Shown in pieces: positions 37,822 to 57,631 of a DNA stretch of 64,000 bases (positions are counted from its first letter, which is position 1; each line of letters starts with the position of its first letter). Source of the DNA: an uncultured Prolixibacteraceae bacterium (GTDB lineage Bacteria; Bacteroidota; Bacteroidia; Bacteroidales; FEN-979); contig CAYUZX010000004.1 of NCBI GenBank assembly GCA_964449285.1, positions 1,070 through 65,069 of the forward strand, in the 5' to 3' direction. A program made the translations under genes and the position numbers. Under the pieces are notes generated by a model. That model saw only the letters and a list, made by a program, of their open reading frames with translations. It did not search any database and was not told where the DNA came from.

Positions 37822-37861
37822 TCAATGCATCAATGCAGGAATGAAGGAATGCAGGAATATA
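37822..37861. repeat. Octamer tandem array TCAATGCA/GGAATGCA x5
   Basis: tcaatgca tcaatgca ggaatgaa ggaatgca ggaatata; ends 3 nt before the SNF2 helicase stop codon. Confidence 0.9.
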
Positions 37862-42093: not shown

Positions 42094-42157
42094 TCAATGC
42101 AGGAATGTAGGAATGCAGGAATGTAGGAATGCAGGAATGTAGGAATGCAGGAATTAT
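42094..42157. repeat. Octamer tandem array GGAATGTA/GGAATGCA x8 with 16-nt higher-order period
   Basis: tcaatgca followed by (ggaatgta ggaatgca) x3 and ggaattat; lies between the YdeI-frame stop (42091) and the four-helix-bundle gene stop (42154). Confidence 0.97.
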
Positions 42158-42581: not shown

Positions 42582-42602
42582 AATTCCTACATTCCTGCAT
42601 TA
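42582..42602. repeat. Inverted copy of the GGAATGYA octamer array (~2.6 units)
   Basis: aattcctacattcctgcatta is the reverse complement of taatgcaggaatgtaggaatt; lies on the other side of the four-helix-bundle gene. Confidence 0.9.
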
Positions 42603-44764: not shown

Positions 44765-44820
44765 CTTTTCTTCCTTCTTCCTTTTTCCTTCATCTTTCTT
44801 TCCTCTTCCTTCGTCTTTTT
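44765..44820. repeat. Pyrimidine-only degenerate heptamer tract TCCTTCT x8
   Basis: cttttct tccttct tcctttt tccttca tctttct ttcctct tccttcg tcttttt; only two purines in 56 nt. Confidence 0.85.
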
Positions 44821-51216: not shown

Positions 51217-52593
51217 ATGACTCTTAAAAAATCAAAAAAGAAACTTCTGATCATCATTGCGGCAGTCATCGTTCTTGCCATTATCATTGTACTGGCTGTT
51301 ATCAAAGGCGGTAAGAATGAGGGGATCAAAGTCTCTGTAGAAATGGTAGCCAAACGGACCATTGTCCAGACTGTCTCTTCCAACGGTAAAATCCAGCCTG
51401 AAAGAGATGTTAAAATATCACCTTACATCTCCGGTGAAGTGGTTGAACTCTATGTGAAAGAGGGCAACCAGGTTAAGAAGGGGGATCTGCTGGCCAAGAT
51501 CGACCCGGAGATTTACATCTCACAGTACGATCAGAGTGTGGCTTCCCTGAATACCCAGAAAGCCAATGAGTCTAATTCCAACGCACGTCAGGTACAGATG
51601 GAGGCACAATTCGAGAATGCCCGCCTGAACTTTGAACGCCAGAAAAAACTTTTTGAACAGAACGTGATTTCCAAGGCTGATTTTGATCAGGCCAAAGCCA
51701 ATTTCGAAGTGGCTCAGGCACAAGTTACCTCAGCAAAACAAGATGTAAAGGCTTCGGAGTTCATGGTGAAGAGCTCGGAAGCAGCGTTGAAGCGCTCCAA
51801 AGAGGATCTCACAAGAACAGCAATTTTTGCCCCTAACGAAGGGACCGTTTCCAAGTTGAATGTATTGAAAGGGGAGCGTGTTACCGGGGCATCCCAGTTT
51901 TCCAGTGGTACAGAGATCATGCGGCTGGCTAACCTCAATGAGATGGAAGCCCAGGTTGAAGTGAATGAAAATGATATCATCAGGGTTACCCTCAACGATA
52001 CGGCTCTCATTGAAGTGGATGCTTACCTGAACCGGAAATTCAAAGGGGTTGTAACTGAGATCGCCACGTCGGCCAATACTACCGGCGTAAGCGTTGATCA
52101 GGTAACCAATTTTAACGTCAAAATTCATCTACTGAAGGAGTCGTATGAAGATCTGCTTGATCCTGATAAACCCTTTTATAGCCCCTTTCGTCCGGGAATG
52201 TCCTGTACGGTGGAGATCCAAACCGAGACTGCTTACAATGTGCTAACCGTGCCTATCCAGGCTGTAACAACACGTGTGTCGCAAGATACATTGGATAAGC
52301 TGAATGCTCAAAACAGAGAAACTGAGCAACGTGGTGACCGTGAAATTGAACGAGTCACTACTAAAAAGACCGAGGAGATCCAGGAGTGTGTATTCATATT
52401 TGAAGATGGGATTGCCAAAAAACAGGATGTCAAAACAGGCATCCAGGATAATACCTATATCCAGATCGAATCGGGTTTATCCGATAGCCTGGAGGTGATT
52501 ACTTCACCCTATTCGGTAGTATCCAAAACCCTGAAAGATGGTGACAAAGTCAAGAAAGTTGACCGCAAAGATCTTTTTAGCGTAAGCAAATAA
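51217..52593 (+). CDS. HlyD/MacA-type efflux periplasmic adaptor subunit
   Basis: 458 aa; N-terminal TM anchor, long coiled-coil hairpin, barrel-sandwich motifs. Confidence 0.85.
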   Translation: MTLKKSKKKLLIIIAAVIVLAIIIVLAVIKGGKNEGIKVSVEMVAKRTIVQTVSSNGKIQPERDVKISPYISGEVVELYVKEGNQVKKGDLLAKIDPEIYISQYDQSVASLNTQKANESNSNARQVQMEAQFENARLNFERQKKLFEQNVISKADFDQAKANFEVAQAQVTSAKQDVKASEFMVKSSEAALKRSKEDLTRTAIFAPNEGTVSKLNVLKGERVTGASQFSSGTEIMRLANLNEMEAQVEVNENDIIRVTLNDTALIEVDAYLNRKFKGVVTEIATSANTTGVSVDQVTNFNVKIHLLKESYEDLLDPDKPFYSPFRPGMSCTVEIQTETAYNVLTVPIQAVTTRVSQDTLDKLNAQNRETEQRGDREIERVTTKKTEEIQECVFIFEDGIAKKQDVKTGIQDNTYIQIESGLSDSLEVITSPYSVVSKTLKDGDKVKKVDRKDLFSVSK

Positions 52594-53354
52594 TGTCGCT
52601 GATTCTGGCCCTTGAAACGGCTACACCTGTATGTTCTGCTACCCTTGCACGTGATGGAGAGATCCTCTCCCTCCTCGAGTCGAATGCCCCCAACGCTCAC
52701 TCTTCCGTGTTAACAGTCTTTATTGAAGAGCTCTTCCGTGAAGCCTCTTTGCGCTATGCTGACCTCGATGCTATATCGGTTAGTATGGGCCCAGGGTCCT
52801 ATACCGGTCTTCGTATCGGGGTAGCGGCAGCGAAAGGTCTCTGCTTTGCGCTCGACAAACCTTTAATTGCTATTCCTACGCTGGAGGCGATGGCAGCAGG
52901 GATGATTTACGAATTAGGCATTACGAATTACGAATTCAGTAACCTTCTTGAAAATCCGGTATCAGGTATCAGACATCAGGCATCGAAACCCGAAACTCTC
53001 TTCTGTCCCATGATCGATGCCCGCCGGATGGAAGTCTATTGTGCTGTGTATGATAAGAATCTAAAGGAGATACGTTCCACAGAAGCTCTGCTAGTTGAAA
53101 AACATTCGTTTGACGATCTGCTGGCAGCGCACGCGATTCTGTTCGCCGGAACAGGAGCCGAAAAATGCCGGGAGCTCCTTTCGCACAAATCGAACGCTTT
53201 GTTTCTGGAGAACTTTCAAGCATCAGCAAGATTCATGATCGCTCTTTCAGAAACACGATTTGTTAAAAACCAGCTTGAGAACCTGGCTTATTTTGAACCC
53301 TTTTATCTGAAGAATTTCATCGCCGGGAAGCCCAAAGTCAAAGGATTGAACTGA
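52593..53354 (+). CDS. tsaB: tRNA t6A37 threonylcarbamoyltransferase complex subunit TsaB, carrying a repeat-derived insertion
   Basis: 253 aa; motifs ILALETAT and VSMGPGSYTGLRIGVAAAKG. An internal segment is encoded by two heptamer arrays (52905-52983). Confidence 0.88.
   Translation: MSLILALETATPVCSATLARDGEILSLLESNAPNAHSSVLTVFIEELFREASLRYADLDAISVSMGPGSYTGLRIGVAAAKGLCFALDKPLIAIPTLEAMAAGMIYELGITNYEFSNLLENPVSGIRHQASKPETLFCPMIDARRMEVYCAVYDKNLKEIRSTEALLVEKHSFDDLLAAHAILFAGTGAEKCRELLSHKSNALFLENFQASARFMIALSETRFVKNQLENLAYFEPFYLKNFIAGKPKVKGLN
52905..52939 (+). repeat. Heptamer array AATTACG x5 inside the tsaB coding sequence
   Basis: atttacg aattagg cattacg aattacg aattcag; translated in frame as (I)YELGITNYEFS. 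Confidence 0.9.
52956..52983 (+). repeat. Heptamer array CCGGTAT/CAGGTAT x4 inside the tsaB coding sequence
   Basis: ccggtat caggtat cagacat caggcat; translated as PVSGIRHQA. Confidence 0.85.
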
Positions 53355-56275: not shown

Positions 56276-57631
56276 ATGTCCGAAAATCCTTTCAAACGAT
56301 TTCCTACGCGTGTGATCCAAATAGGCGACCTGCCAATGGGTGGTTCTTATCCTATCCGCGTTCAGTCGATGACCAATACCGACACCCAGAACACGGAGGG
56401 AACGGTGGCCCAGGCGATCCGTATGATCGAAGCAGGTTGTGAATATGTCCGAATCGCTGTGCCCGGGATGAAAGATGTAGAGAACCTCCGGGAGATCAAG
56501 AAGCGAATCCGTGCAGCCGGATTTACCACTCCACTGATTGCCGATGTTCATCTCAACCCTAAGATCGCGGAATTTGCTGCTACCATCGTGGAAAAGGTGA
56601 GGATCAACCCGGGGAACTATCTGCCAGGGTCGAGGGTAGAGGGTAGAGGGTCGAAAGACGAAGGTCGAAAGACGAAGGACGAGGGACGAGGGACGAGGGA
56701 CGAGGGACAGGGTTCAAGGGTCAAGGGTCAAGGGTCAAAGATCCAGGAGCCAGAACCGATGCGAAGCGGAGTTCGGCGAAGCCAATCCAGCTCTCCAATC
56801 ATCATAAATCCGGTATCCGGTATCCGGCATCCGGTATCAGATCAGCAGTATTTCGATGAACTATCGTTCCGTCTGGCACCTCTGTTAAAGATTTGCCGGG
56901 ATCATGGAACGGCTGTCCGTATCGGGGTGAACCACGGATCGCTTTCTGATCGGATCATGGAACAATATGGAGATACGCCGAAAGGGATGGTTGAATCGGC
57001 GCTGGAGTTTGCCCGGATCTGTGAAGTTCACAACTTCCGAAACCTTGTATTATCGCTTAAAGCCTCCAACACCCGTGCGATGATTCAGGCAAACCGGCTG
57101 CTGGTTAAGCGGATGAAAGCAGAGGGAATGGATTATCCCTTACACCTTGGTGTTACCGAAGCCGGAGCCGGAGAGGATGGCCGGTTGAAGTCGGCCGTGG
57201 GGATCGGTAGCCTGCTGGCCGACGGGATTGGCGATACGATCAGGGTATCAATCACCGAAGATCCGGAACAAGAGATCCCGGTAGCTTACGGTATCCTCCA
57301 GGCAACAGGCGTTCGTATCACCCGTACCGAATACATCTCCTGCCCAACCTGTGCCCGTACACTTTTCGATATGCAGGTGTCAGTACAAAAAATCAAAGAG
57401 CTGACCCGTCACCTCTCCGGATTGAAAATCGCCGTGATGGGATGCATCGTGAACGGTCCGGGCGAAATGGCCGATGCCCACTACGGATATGTTGGAGCCG
57501 GCAAAGGGAAAGTGAACCTCTACAAAGGCCAGAATCTGGTGAAAAAGAATATCGATGAATCGGTGGCGGTAGAAGAGCTGATTGAGTTGATTAAAGAGGG
57601 CGGAGACTGGAAAGACAATGAGCAAGAATGA
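56276..57631 (+). CDS. ispG: 4-hydroxy-3-methylbut-2-enyl diphosphate synthase (IspG/GcpE), carrying a repeat-derived insertion
   Basis: 451 aa; motifs IRVQSMTNT, RINPGN, RIGVNHGSL, GVTEAG, ISCPTCAR, GCIVNGPGE. The loop after RINPGN is encoded by heptamer arrays (56627-56844). Confidence 0.93.
   Translation: MSENPFKRFPTRVIQIGDLPMGGSYPIRVQSMTNTDTQNTEGTVAQAIRMIEAGCEYVRIAVPGMKDVENLREIKKRIRAAGFTTPLIADVHLNPKIAEFAATIVEKVRINPGNYLPGSRVEGRGSKDEGRKTKDEGRGTRDEGQGSRVKGQGSKIQEPEPMRSGVRRSQSSSPIIINPVSGIRHPVSDQQYFDELSFRLAPLLKICRDHGTAVRIGVNHGSLSDRIMEQYGDTPKGMVESALEFARICEVHNFRNLVLSLKASNTRAMIQANRLLVKRMKAEGMDYPLHLGVTEAGAGEDGRLKSAVGIGSLLADGIGDTIRVSITEDPEQEIPVAYGILQATGVRITRTEYISCPTCARTLFDMQVSVQKIKELTRHLSGLKIAVMGCIVNGPGEMADAHYGYVGAGKGKVNLYKGQNLVKKNIDESVAVEELIELIKEGGDWKDNEQE
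56627..56738 (+). repeat. 16-unit heptamer array (GGGTCGA/GGGTAGA/AAGACGA/GGGACGA/GGGTCAA) inside the ispG coding sequence
   Basis: Units read directly from the sequence. They translate with 7-aa periodicity as GSRVEGR GSKDEGR KTKDEGR GTRDEGQ GSRVKGQ GS. Confidence 0.95.
56810..56844 (+). repeat. Heptamer array CCGGTAT x5 inside the ispG coding sequence
   Basis: ccggtat ccggtat ccggcat ccggtat cagatca; translated as PVSGIRHPVSDQ. Confidence 0.92.

What the first reader, a model, noticed from the sequence alone, without database searches (positions are those of the whole stretch)
56627..56844. Essential gene ispG carries an in-frame insertion built from two heptamer arrays, giving a 7-residue peptide repeat
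Seen in sequence:
- Directly after the conserved RINPGN motif the ORF reads through 16 consecutive 7-nt units (56627-56738).
- It then reads ~70 nt of unique sequence and 5 CCGGTAT units (56810-56844) before rejoining conserved sequence (...RIGVNHGSL).
- Since 3 x 7 nt = 21 nt, the array translates as a 7-aa repeat: GSRVEGR GSKDEGR KTKDEGR GTRDEGQ GSRVKGQ.
- The protein is 451 aa. The canonical two-domain enzyme (E. coli) is ~370 aa, and its segment between RINPGN and RIGVNAGSL is only ~20 aa.
- The GGGTAGA unit occurs exactly twice in a row. A third consecutive copy would put TAG in frame.
- The units AAGACGA/GGGACGA look like stop-free variants of the intergenic GTAAGAC/GTGAGAC family. The string aaagacgaagga also occurs on the complementary strand of the atpA-atpG spacer tract at 44765-44820.

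Inference: a repeat element has invaded a surface loop of the TIM-barrel domain of an essential Fe-S enzyme and is tolerated. A change of one unit would frameshift the gene.
Basis: partly seen in the sequence, partly recalled or inferred. Interest (0 to 1): 0.65.

Follow-up and report, generated by a model that had tools for sequence, protein, structure and literature searches.

The report
Translated 7-base repeats inside ispG
An essential isoprenoid-synthesis enzyme of an uncultured lake Bacteroidales bacterium carries a 70-residue floppy loop encoded by runs of 7-base tandem repeats, the same repeat DNA that fills the gaps between its genes; relatives carry different repeats at the same loop, so the loop looks like tolerated filler, not a new functional part.

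Summary
ispG (56276-57631, 451 aa) reads in frame through 16 heptamer units (56627-56738), 71 nt of non-periodic sequence, and 4 CCGGYAT units, not 5 (56810-56837).

The gene is functional IspG. It passes TIGR00612, folds like 3NOY, keeps the Cys/Glu cluster ligands, and has dN/dS 0.04-0.07 outside the loop. Metatranscriptome contigs cover it.

The insert (residues 118-187) lies between strand β4 (RINPGN) and helix α4. AlphaFold2 predicts it disordered.

The right baseline for this segment is 41-44 aa (cyanobacterial and Bacteroidota type), not E. coli's 20. The net gain is about 55-58 aa.

This loop is the only internal indel site among 96 orthologues (24-100 aa), and the window's loop is the longest. 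Relatives carry other heptamer words there. Two contigs with identical flanks carry completely different loops. Yet at least 11 contigs of the window's own population have the same length, and none of more than 160 loci is frameshifted.

Best reading: genome-wide STRR-like heptamer simple-sequence DNA living in a sequence-unconstrained loop, filtered only for frame and stop codons. A G-quadruplex role or an active repeat-writing process is not excluded.

The parts
56276..57631 (+). ispG (gcpE), 451 aa. Two-domain (A+B) form that lacks the A* domain.
   Evidence: ORF. Pfam PF04551 at 2e-122. TIGR00612 scores 442.6 bits against a cut-off of 280. AF2 model matches 3NOY with TMt 0.86. C356, C359, C390 and E397 are invariant. 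A* is absent when compared with L032.
56627..56836 (+). Hypervariable insert, residues 118-187 (210 nt = 70 codons = 30 heptamer lengths). Predicted disordered loop between β4 (RINPGN) and helix α4.
   Evidence: pLDDT is below 50 for residues 122-185, with no secondary structure. It is the only internal indel region among 96 orthologues. Composition: 49% G/S/P/T/Q/N, 34% charged, 16% hydrophobic.
56627..56738 (+). Array A: 16 heptamer units in four blocks of four (GGGTMGA, ARGWCGA, GGGACGA, GGKTCAA). It is 79% purine on the sense strand and encodes the 7-aa periodic peptide.
56627..56734 (+). Canonical G-quadruplex motifs (G3N4 x4) at 56627-56650 and 56683-56734 on the sense strand. These are the only such motifs on either strand of the 64-kb window.
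   Evidence: Regex scan, plus ViennaRNA with the gquad option, which predicts a G4 in the (GGGACGA)4 run (-48.2 against -40.5 kcal/mol).
56739..56809 (+). 71-nt spacer without significant periodicity (KIQEPEPMRSGVRRSQSSSPIIIN). It contains single words seen as arrays in relatives (ATCCAGC, GTTCGG).
   Evidence: Lag-7 identity is 0.33 against 0.25 in shuffles, p = 0.11. Words compared with L001 and L165.
56810..56837 (+). Array B: 4 units of CCGGYAT, encoding PVSGIRHPV. It is orthologous to the ATCCGGC/ATCCAGC arrays of relatives.
   Evidence: A T>C polymorphism at 56814 appears in contigs and as variant P0124.
56837..56917 (+). Conserved 27 aa (SDQQYFDELSFRLAPLLKICRDHGTAV), forming helix α4 that leads into β5 (RIGVNHGSL).
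   Evidence: Helix 189-210 in the model. Conserved in alignments A1 and A2.
52907..52984 (+). Second in-ORF case in the window. tsaB (52593-53354) carries TTACGAA x4.3 and CCGGTAT/ATCAGGY x3.4, encoding ...NPVSGIRHQAS, which is the same word and peptide as array B of ispG.
   Evidence: TRF. ORF overlap. Translation. TIGR03725 TsaB at 1e-47.

Best explanation
The insert is heptanucleotide simple-sequence DNA of the STRR-like kind. It belongs to the same word families that fill this genome's intergenic spacers.

It sits in a segment of ispG whose amino-acid sequence is essentially unconstrained: the start of the β4-α4 connection of the TIM-barrel domain. The segment is translated as a disordered, hydrophilic 70-residue loop.

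Arrays there grow, shrink, homogenise and are swapped by replication slippage and homologous recombination. Selection on the essential enzyme removes every variant that breaks the frame or brings a stop codon into phase. Only stop-free words, and net length changes that are multiples of 3 nt, survive.

The peptide has no function of its own. The enzyme works despite it.

Shown:
- the anatomy of the arrays;
- an intact gene under purifying selection;
- a predicted disordered loop;
- clade-wide turnover at this one site;
- length stability within the window's own population;
- transcription through the insert.

Inferred:
- slippage and recombination as the generating processes;
- neutrality of the peptide;
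- essentiality of the gene in this organism.
For: 1. Same repeat families inside and outside genes.
- Seven or more intergenic period-7 arrays lie in the window, and ispG and tsaB are the only genes with internal arrays.
- AAAGACGAAGGA is shared with the spacer at 44807.
- NPVSGIRH, encoded by CCGGTAT, occurs in both TsaB and IspG.

2. The gene is functional.
- It passes the HMM cut-offs.
- It has the IspG fold.
- The cluster ligands are invariant.
- dN/dS is 0.04-0.07 at dS of about 1-1.5 outside the loop.
- Synteny ACAD-ispG-DAGK is conserved.

3. The loop is structurally free. pLDDT is below 50 for residues 122-185, and the composition is low-complexity and hydrophilic.

4. The site is the only internal indel region in 96 orthologues, with lengths of 24-100 aa.
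- Loops are as short as 20 aa in L126.
- A non-repetitive 68-aa loop occurs in a Fimbriimonadaceae genome.

5. Relatives carry different words at the same site, each significant against shuffles.
- (ACGAGGG)x21 in L001.
- AGGGTCA x6 plus ATCCGGC x9 in L002.
- GATGCTG, encoding MLDAGYW.
- CGCGTCA, encoding RVTRHAS.
- No charge or sequence property is conserved.

6. Turnover is fast. L164 and L165 are identical over 3323 nt on the left and nearly identical on the right, yet their loops are unrelated and differ by 90 nt. Three SNPs cluster just left of the loop, as in a recombination patch.

7. Selection filters the variants.
- All of the more than 160 loci keep both flanking motifs in one frame.
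- GGGTAGA is present only in the phases where TAG is out of frame.

8. The array length is real.
- The 451-aa protein is found on at least 11 contigs from several sources.
- The longest perfectly periodic run is only 32 nt.

9. RNA contigs are colinear with the DNA across both flanks, the spacer and array B.
Against: - Non-triplet repeats are expected to be strongly counter-selected inside essential genes. Mrazek et al. 2007, as summarised in PMC4679880, found that coding repeats mostly have 3n units. A 16-unit array is therefore surprising under pure neutrality.
- Array A is the only G-quadruplex motif in 64 kb, and it lies on the sense strand. This could hint at a function.
- Many arrays in the orthologous loops come in blocks of about four units, which simple slippage does not predict. 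However, perfect-tract lengths show no clear peak.
- No length polymorphism was seen within the window's own population, so ongoing slippage is inferred rather than observed.
Confidence: 0.8

Rival explanations
1. An active element or process, not slippage, puts the arrays there. A dedicated repeat-writing or copy-and-replace mechanism, or mobile mini-elements, would deposit modules of about 28-30 nt made of heptamer units, and small hairpins, at permissive sites including this loop.
For: - L164 and L165 have identical flanks but wholly different loop content. L164's loop includes a 22-nt hairpin, CCCCTCCCCAATAAGGGAGGGG, that recurs in intergenic DNA of other clade members.
- The same word, with the same flank AAATCCGGTATC, occurs in tsaB and ispG.
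- Array A is built of 4 x 4 units, and many orthologous arrays have about 4 units.
- The word depth of (GGGACGA)n in the lake metagenomes is 20-30 times that of the flanks.
Against: - Three SNPs next to the replaced tract fit ordinary homologous recombination with a diverged strain.
- Graded unit variants within arrays (GGGTCGA to AGGTCGA to AGGACGA to GGGACGA) fit in-situ mutation plus slippage.
- Perfect-tract lengths decay without a clear peak at 28 nt.
- No candidate enzyme was identified.
Confidence: 0.12
2. The array has a regulatory role at the nucleic-acid level. The sense-strand G3N4 repeats would fold into an RNA or DNA G-quadruplex that tunes translation or transcription of ispG. 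Alternatively, the array would act as a phase-variable on/off switch.
For: - The only canonical G4 motifs of the window lie in array A, and a G4 is predicted in (GGGACGA)4.
- G-rich heptamer repeats of Xanthomonas and Nostoc form G4 in vitro (PMC4692102).
- L001 and L002 also have GGG-containing words on the sense strand.
Against: - Orthologous loops built from ATCCGGC, GATGCTG, ACGAAGA, CGCGTCA or GATACCG have no G-tracts, and some loops are only 20-41 aa.
- No length variant or out-of-frame allele was found in at least 11 contigs of the window's population or in more than 160 loci.
- ispG is a housekeeping gene, not a surface or contingency gene.
- Ordinary RNA folding of the insert is no better than shuffles (z = +1.16).
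Confidence: 0.05
3. The disordered loop is a selected protein feature, for example a tether or docking site for the electron donor, or a regulatory or solubility tag.
For: - The expanded state (55-100 aa) is kept in all 10 members of the subclade.
- The insert is next to the catalytic face of the barrel, immediately after the RINPGN motif.
Against: - No conserved sequence, charge or length. Net charge is +6 in the window but about 0 in L001 and L164.
- Sister lineages manage with 20-45 aa.
- The 73-aa insert has no match outside its own 90% cluster among 5.8 billion protein clusters.
Confidence: 0.03
4. The feature is an assembly artefact, or this copy is a decaying pseudogene backed up by another ispG.
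For: - Short-read metagenome assemblies can mis-size repeats. Logan k=31 contigs break inside the GGGACGA run.
- A second copy could not be searched for.
Against: - The length is identical on at least 11 contigs from NCBI, JGI and ENA assemblies, including k141 MEGAHIT contigs of 150-194 kb.
- The ORF is intact.
- dN/dS is about 0.05.
- RNA contigs cover it.
Confidence: 0.02

Closest known systems
Heptanucleotide long simple-sequence repeats. Examples: STRR of heterocystous cyanobacteria (Mazel et al. 1990, from my own knowledge), the survey of Mrazek et al. 2007, TAACTGA repeats of Beggiatoaceae (PMC4679880), and GGGAATC/GGGGAYT repeats of Xanthomonas and Nostoc (PMC4692102).
   Same: - Head-to-tail 7-nt units.
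- Many dispersed arrays per genome, mostly intergenic and close to gene ends.
- Several word families.
- Copy number differs between relatives.
- G-rich words can form G4.
   Different: - The words differ from the cyanobacterial STRR words.
- The host is an uncultured lake Bacteroidales.
- The published arrays are under-represented in ORFs. Here 16 + 4 units are translated in all three phases inside an essential enzyme.
- Cyanobacterial IspG itself keeps a constant 43-aa loop.
Rickettsia palindromic elements (RPE) inserted in frame in protein-coding genes (Ogata et al. 2000, from my own knowledge).
   Same: Repeat DNA is tolerated and translated as an extra surface segment of conserved, including essential, proteins, without evident function for the peptide.
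   Different: RPEs are palindromic elements of about 100-150 bp. The insert here is a direct tandem array with no inverted repeat, and its copy number evolves in situ.
Phase-variable contingency loci (non-3n simple-sequence repeats inside ORFs of Haemophilus, Neisseria and Campylobacter; PMC8262952, PMC2651432).
   Same: A non-triplet tandem repeat lies inside an ORF, so one unit gained or lost shifts the frame.
   Different: - The gene is housekeeping, not a surface or modification gene.
- No on/off length variants were seen.
- The array is in mid-gene and is interrupted by unit variants.
A* insert domain of three-domain IspG (Liu et al. 2012, cited in PMC10663253).
   Same: A lineage-specific insertion into IspG that the enzyme tolerates.
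   Different: A* is a folded TIM-barrel-like domain of about 140-270 aa between domains A and B. This protein lacks A* altogether. Its insert is a disordered repeat-encoded loop at a different site, after β4.
SDR mini-hairpins nested in cyanobacterial STRR arrays (Elhai et al. 2008, from my own knowledge; cited in PMC3116915).
   Same: The relative L164 has a 22-nt hairpin next to a heptamer array inside the same ispG loop. The hairpin recurs in intergenic DNA of the clade.
   Different: It is not present in the window's own insert. Homology to SDRs was not tested.

Membership tests
IspG/GcpE, (E)-4-hydroxy-3-methylbut-2-enyl-diphosphate synthase | Full-length match to the family models above the curated cut-offs | tested here: met
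   PF04551 at 2.1e-122, covering 1-343 of 343 profile positions. TIGR00612 scores 442.6 against 280.25, and NF001540 scores 382.8 against 345.
IspG/GcpE, (E)-4-hydroxy-3-methylbut-2-enyl-diphosphate synthase | TIM-barrel domain A plus 4Fe-4S domain B fold | tested here: met
   AF2 model has mean pLDDT 80.5. Foldseek to 3NOY gives E = 5e-33 and TMt 0.86.
IspG/GcpE, (E)-4-hydroxy-3-methylbut-2-enyl-diphosphate synthase | Three Cys plus one Glu cluster ligands (CPxC ... GC ... NGPGE) | tested here: met
   C356, C359, C390 and E397 are invariant in 34 and in 96 orthologues. Their role as ligands comes from the published structures (my own knowledge).
IspG/GcpE, (E)-4-hydroxy-3-methylbut-2-enyl-diphosphate synthase | Catalytic activity, and being the only copy in the genome | not testable with these tools
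   There is no assay.
Heptanucleotide long simple-sequence repeats (STRR-like) | At least 3 head-to-tail units of 7 nt, above chance | tested here: met
   TRF finds 12.6 + 5.1 + 4.4 copies. There are 16 + 4 units in register. None of 300 shuffles reaches the score.
Heptanucleotide long simple-sequence repeats (STRR-like) | Many dispersed arrays of a few word families in the same genome, mostly intergenic | tested here: met
   There are at least 11 other period-7 arrays in the 64 kb, 9 of them intergenic. Perfect tracts of 20 nt or more in the clade: 41 for period 7, against 0 for period 6 and 1 for period 9. The whole genome was not searchable.
Heptanucleotide long simple-sequence repeats (STRR-like) | Copy number and word vary between strains or relatives | tested here: met
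   Variation is seen between relatives and between near-identical contigs L164 and L165. It was not seen within the window's own population.
Cyanobacterial STRR proper | The STRR words and a cyanobacterial host | tested here: not met
   The words here are GGGWCGA, GGGTCAA and CCGGYAT. The host is Bacteroidales (names). Cyanobacterial ispG loops are constant and non-repetitive.
Phase-variable contingency locus | In-frame and out-of-frame length variants coexist in populations | tested here: not met
   At least 11 contigs all give 451 aa. More than 160 loci are all in frame. Only contigs were available, not raw reads, so rare variants would be missed.
RPE-like palindromic in-frame insertion | Palindromic (inverted-arm) element | tested here: not met
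   No inverted repeat in 56560-56900. RNA fold z = +1.16.
G-quadruplex-forming heptamer repeats | Four or more G3 tracts with loops of 7 nt or less | tested here: met
   Motifs at 56627-56650 and 56683-56734 on the sense strand.
G-quadruplex-forming heptamer repeats | G4 potential conserved at the orthologous site, and G4 formation shown | tested here: not met
   Many orthologous arrays lack G-tracts. Formation in vitro is not testable here.

The most novel reading that the evidence does not exclude
The ispG loop is a recurrent target of an active, still unidentified process that writes or replaces short modules of heptamer units, often about four units (about 28 nt), together with mini-hairpins. 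The process would act at permissive sites, in spacers and in protein loops alike.

Three observations would then be its footprints:
- the complete replacement of the loop between contigs with identical flanks (L164 and L165);
- the same CCGGTAT module in tsaB and ispG;
- the 4 x 4 block build of array A.
Probability: 0.12. Interest if true: 0.8.

Novelty: new variant of a known kind. Interest (0 to 1): 0.48.

Why it matters
Non-triplet tandem repeats inside ORFs are textbook phase-variation switches and are thought to be purged from essential genes.

Here a 7-nt repeat family is translated, in all three phases, as a 70-residue disordered loop of an essential Fe-S enzyme. The same loop has been rewritten again and again across a clade while the rest of the protein is frozen.

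This gives three things:
- A natural map of a fully permissive insertion site next to the active face of IspG, which is a drug target and a bottleneck in metabolic engineering.
- A clean system for measuring how selection for frame and against stop codons shapes simple-sequence DNA.
- One more data point that heptamer repeats behave as genome-wide filler that also enters proteins. The papers I could search describe this habit only for spacers.

Tried and rejected

2. Read-level length polymorphism. All 22 runs are kept only as Logan contigs. These contigs break in the GGGACGA run and cannot show rare variants. I used cluster members instead.

The metagenome scan supplied the close relatives.

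4. A search with the insert alone found only the protein's own cluster. It gave no evidence that this exact peptide occurs in other proteins.

5. The spacer as a degenerate array: not significant (p = 0.11).

6. A rule that the purine-rich strand is always the sense strand: intergenic arrays in the window show both orientations, so I dropped it.

7. A preference for four units: perfect-tract lengths show no clear peak, so it is kept only as an observation.

8. A palindromic or structured-RNA reading: no inverted repeats, and z = +1.16.

9. Literature searches for heptamer repeats in Bacteroidales, or translated heptamer arrays, found nothing specific.
Full report
**1. What is in the sequence**

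The + strand ORF 56276-57631 encodes a 451-aa protein. It matches Pfam GcpE over the whole model at 2e-122 and passes the NCBIfam IspG equivalogs: TIGR00612 scores 442.6 bits against a cut-off of 280.

The heptamer arrays start at position 56627, which is the first base of codon 118.
- Sixteen consecutive 7-nt units run to 56738, in register: GGGTCGA, GGGTAGA, GGGTAGA, GGGTCGA, AAGACGA, AGGTCGA, AAGACGA, AGGACGA, GGGACGA x3, GGGACAG, GGTTCAA, GGGTCAA x3.
- Tandem Repeats Finder reports period 7 over 56626-56738 and 56808-56838.
- The second array has four units, not five: CCGGTAT, CCGGTAT, CCGGCAT, CCGGTAT at 56810-56837. The next heptamer, CAGATCA, matches only 3 of 7 positions.
- The 71 nt between the arrays shows no significant 7-nt periodicity (p = 0.11).

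The two copies lie in phases 1 and 2, and a copy in phase 0 would read GGG TAG.
- The 12-mer AAAGACGAAGGA recurs exactly at 44807-44818 on the minus strand. There are 4 hits at up to 1 mismatch, against 0.39 expected.

**2. Is the gene real and working?**

Several lines say yes.
- An AlphaFold2 model built on 96 orthologues has mean pLDDT 80.5 and matches Aquifex IspG (3NOY) with TMt 0.86.
- The cluster ligands C356, C359, C390 and E397 are invariant.
- Outside the loop, dN/dS against three subclade members is 0.04-0.07, with synonymous sites near saturation (dS 1.0-1.5).
- The neighbourhood (acyl-CoA dehydrogenase, ispG, diacylglycerol kinase) is conserved.
- Metatranscriptome contigs from lake-water samples are colinear with the DNA on both flanks of array A, and through the spacer and array B. 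So nothing is spliced out. DNA carry-over in those libraries cannot be excluded.

The array length is not an assembly accident.
- The exact 451-aa protein (P0121), or single-substitution variants of it, sit on at least 11 contigs from NCBI, JGI and ENA assemblies.
- One of these is a 151-kb k141 contig that differs from the window by 2 bases in 7.4 kb. One of the two lies inside array A (56679 A>T).
- Two of the amino-acid polymorphisms among the cluster members read (D136V, V179A) lie in the arrays.
- No length variant was seen.

**3. Where the insert sits and how big it is**

In the model, strand 107-110 (VRIN) is followed by a short turn. Residues 122-185 have pLDDT below 50 and no secondary structure. 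Then come helix 189-210 and strand 213-219 (RIGVNHG). The insert is therefore in the β4-to-α4 connection of the TIM barrel, directly after the RINPGN motif.

Aquifex has 21. That is the wrong yardstick.
- IspG of cyanobacteria, other Bacteroidota, Verrucomicrobiota and others has a conserved, non-repetitive 41-44 aa segment of the type Y-DKKKFExIEYTDxEYxxELERIRxRFxPLVKICKEYGTAM.
- The window has 100 aa between N114 and R215.
- Its last 27 aa (SDQQYFDELSFRLAPLLKICRDHGTAV) are the conserved helix.
- The variable part is residues 118-187 (56627-56836, 210 nt). The net gain is about 55-58 aa.

The insert is 49% G/S/P/T/Q/N, 34% charged and 16% hydrophobic.

**4. Relatives**

A search of 5.8 billion protein clusters returned thousands of IspG. 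The closest (65-80% identity) are from Bacteroidales or Bacteroidota MAGs and are 374-474 aa long.
- In an alignment of 96 of them, the only internal indel region is query residues 122-186. Loop lengths run from 24 to 100 aa with a median of 50, and the window's loop is the longest.
- I fetched DNA for more than 160 loci.

On a tree built without the loop, the window falls in a 10-member subclade with 99% SH-aLRT support.
- Every loop in this subclade is expanded, to 55-100 aa.
- Sister groups have 41-50 aa, and one has 20 aa.

At the DNA level the loops of most clade members contain period-7 arrays that beat shuffles, built from different words.

| Locus | Array in the ispG loop |
|---|---|
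| L001 | (ACGAGGG/ACGAAGG) x21 |
| L002 | AGGGTCA x6 and ATCCGGC x9 |
| L084 | GTTCCGG x4 and GTTCAAG x4 |
| L005 | ACGAAGA x5 |
| L088 | GATACCG x4 |
| several lineages | GATGCTG x4, read as MLDAGYW |
| other lineages | CGCGTCA or CGTTACG, read as RVTRHAS |

- The 5' GGGWCRA array and the 3' ATCCRGY array of the window have positional counterparts in several subclade members. So the arrays are old residents that evolve in place, not a recent invasion.
- Cyanobacterial ispG, from genomes rich in STRR heptamers, has a constant 43-aa loop.
- The 73-aa insert of the window has no match outside its own 90% cluster.

**5. Speed and filter**

Contigs L164 and L165 come from two assemblies and carry completely different loops.
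- Their flanks are identical for the first 3323 nt, and show only a dozen mismatches in the 3.8 kb after the loop.
- L165 has (GGGTCGA)x4, GGTTCAA x2 and about 11 ATCCRGC units.
- L164 is 90 nt shorter. It has a 22-nt hairpin, CCCCTCCCCAATAAGGGAGGGG, followed by (GGCATCA)x4.5.
- Three SNPs lie within 30 nt to the left of the replaced tract. This is what a short recombination patch from a diverged strain would leave.
- The hairpin recurs in intergenic DNA of other clade members.

Despite this turnover, every one of the more than 160 loci keeps the NPGN and RIGxNxGS motifs in the same frame. Every array word seen is free of stop codons in the phases in which it is read.

**6. The genomic background**

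The window holds at least 11 other period-7 arrays and several period-8 arrays, nearly all in spacers.
- Only one other gene has internal arrays: tsaB (52593-53354, TIGR03725 at 1e-47). Its TTACGAA x4.3 and CCGGTAT/ATCAGGY x3.4 encode ...NPVSGIRHQAS, the same word and peptide as array B of ispG (NPVSGIRHPVS).
- Its orthologues in L001 and L002 carry TGCCAAC x4.4 in the orthologous gene instead.
- Across 352 kb of clade DNA, perfect tracts of 20 nt or more number 41 for period 7, 0 for period 6, 14 for period 8 and 1 for period 9.

Earlier notes of this scan describe the same clade-wide heptamer habit in this genome (e1-2157529), and in-frame heptamer arrays in essential genes of several other phyla. 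I used those notes as leads only.

**7. Interpretation**

The simplest account that fits everything is as follows.
- The first part of the β4-α4 connection of this IspG lineage is free of sequence constraint.
- It therefore behaves like a piece of spacer DNA inside a gene. It accumulates whatever the genome's spacers accumulate: heptamer simple-sequence arrays, and occasionally a small hairpin.
- Slippage and recombination change it quickly.
- Selection on the enzyme allows only in-frame, stop-free outcomes.

The lack of any conserved length, charge or motif among orthologous loops argues against a role for the peptide. Loops range from 20 aa to 100 aa, and net charge from about 0 to +6.

Three things keep more interesting readings alive at low probability.
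- Array A contains the only canonical G-quadruplex motifs of the whole window, on the sense strand. ViennaRNA predicts a G4 there, as shown in vitro for G-rich heptamer repeats of Xanthomonas and Nostoc (PMC4692102). But many orthologous arrays have no G-tracts.
- Array A is built of four blocks of four units, and many orthologous arrays have about four units. Tract-length statistics do not confirm a preference.
- The wholesale replacement between L164 and L165, and the shared module in tsaB and ispG, could reflect active planting rather than slippage plus recombination.

**8. Comparison with what is known**

- The nearest known kind is the heptanucleotide long simple-sequence repeat. This covers cyanobacterial STRR, the survey of Mrazek et al. 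2007 as summarised in PMC4679880, the TAACTGA repeats and the G4-forming repeats. Published work describes these as intergenic and under-represented in ORFs, and finds that coding repeats mostly have 3n units.
- The tolerated, translated insertion resembles Rickettsia palindromic elements in effect. However, it has no palindrome.
- It fails the test for a phase-variation locus, because no length variants were seen and the gene is a housekeeping gene.
- It is unrelated to the A* insert domain. This protein lacks A*, although Bacteroidota are described as having three-domain IspG.
- My literature searches found no description of translated heptamer arrays in Bacteroidales or in IspG.

**9. Limits**

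A second ispG copy, a mevalonate pathway and a whole-genome array census remain unchecked.
- Sequencing runs were available only as contigs, so rare length variants would be invisible.
- Neutrality of the loop and the slippage mechanism are inferred, not shown.

Noticed in passing
window 52593-53354 (arrays at 52907-52936 and 52956-52984): tsaB, another core gene, also carries in-frame heptamer arrays. One of them uses the same CCGGTAT/ATCAGGY word and gives the same peptide (NPVSGIRH) as ispG array B. Orthologues in L001 (313-343) and L002 (2678-2707) carry TGCCAAC x4.4 in the same gene instead.
   Followed up: partly
L164:3340-3500 against L165:3340-3590: Two assemblies have flanks identical over 3.3 kb but unrelated ispG loops that differ by 90 nt. 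L164's loop contains a 22-nt hairpin, CCCCTCCCCAATAAGGGAGGGG, translated as PLPNKGG. Hairpins of the same family lie in L005 (935), L100 (4170), L119 (2569) and L122 (7).
   Followed up: partly
window 56276-57631, and L032:3001-4728: This Bacteroidales clade has a two-domain IspG without the A* domain, although it is most similar to three-domain models (NF002534, 566 bits in 3 stretches). The literature describes Bacteroidota as having the three-domain form (PMC10663253). This suggests secondary loss of A*.
   Followed up: partly
window 56627-56734: The only canonical G-quadruplex motifs (G3+ N1-7, four times) on either strand of the 64-kb window lie in ispG array A, on the sense strand.
   Followed up: partly
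window 56664-56711 in runs X1, X10, X13, X15: Contig word depth over the (GGGACGA)n run is 20-30 times that of the flanks (for example 3787 against 125 in X1). So the same heptamer word is abundant at many other loci or in other organisms of the lake community.
   Followed up: no
window 56627-56738: Array A is built of four blocks of four units (GGGTMGA, ARGWCGA, GGGACGA, GGKTCAA), and array B also has four units. Many orthologous arrays have about four units as well. Tract-length statistics did not confirm a preference for four.
   Followed up: partly
L001:7296-7361: A 9-nt tandem array (GACAGGTTG x5.3) straddles the stop codon of the orthologous ispG. The window has no array at its ispG stop.
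   Followed up: no
L017:449-653: A Fimbriimonadaceae IspG has a non-repetitive 68-aa segment at the same β4-α4 site. The site therefore tolerates insertions in an unrelated phylum too.
   Followed up: no
window 37824-37858, 42096-42154, 42583-42601: Octamer arrays (AATGCAGG/AATGTAGG and their complement) lie in spacers alongside the heptamer families. The array at 42096-42154 is a strict 16-nt alternation.
   Followed up: no
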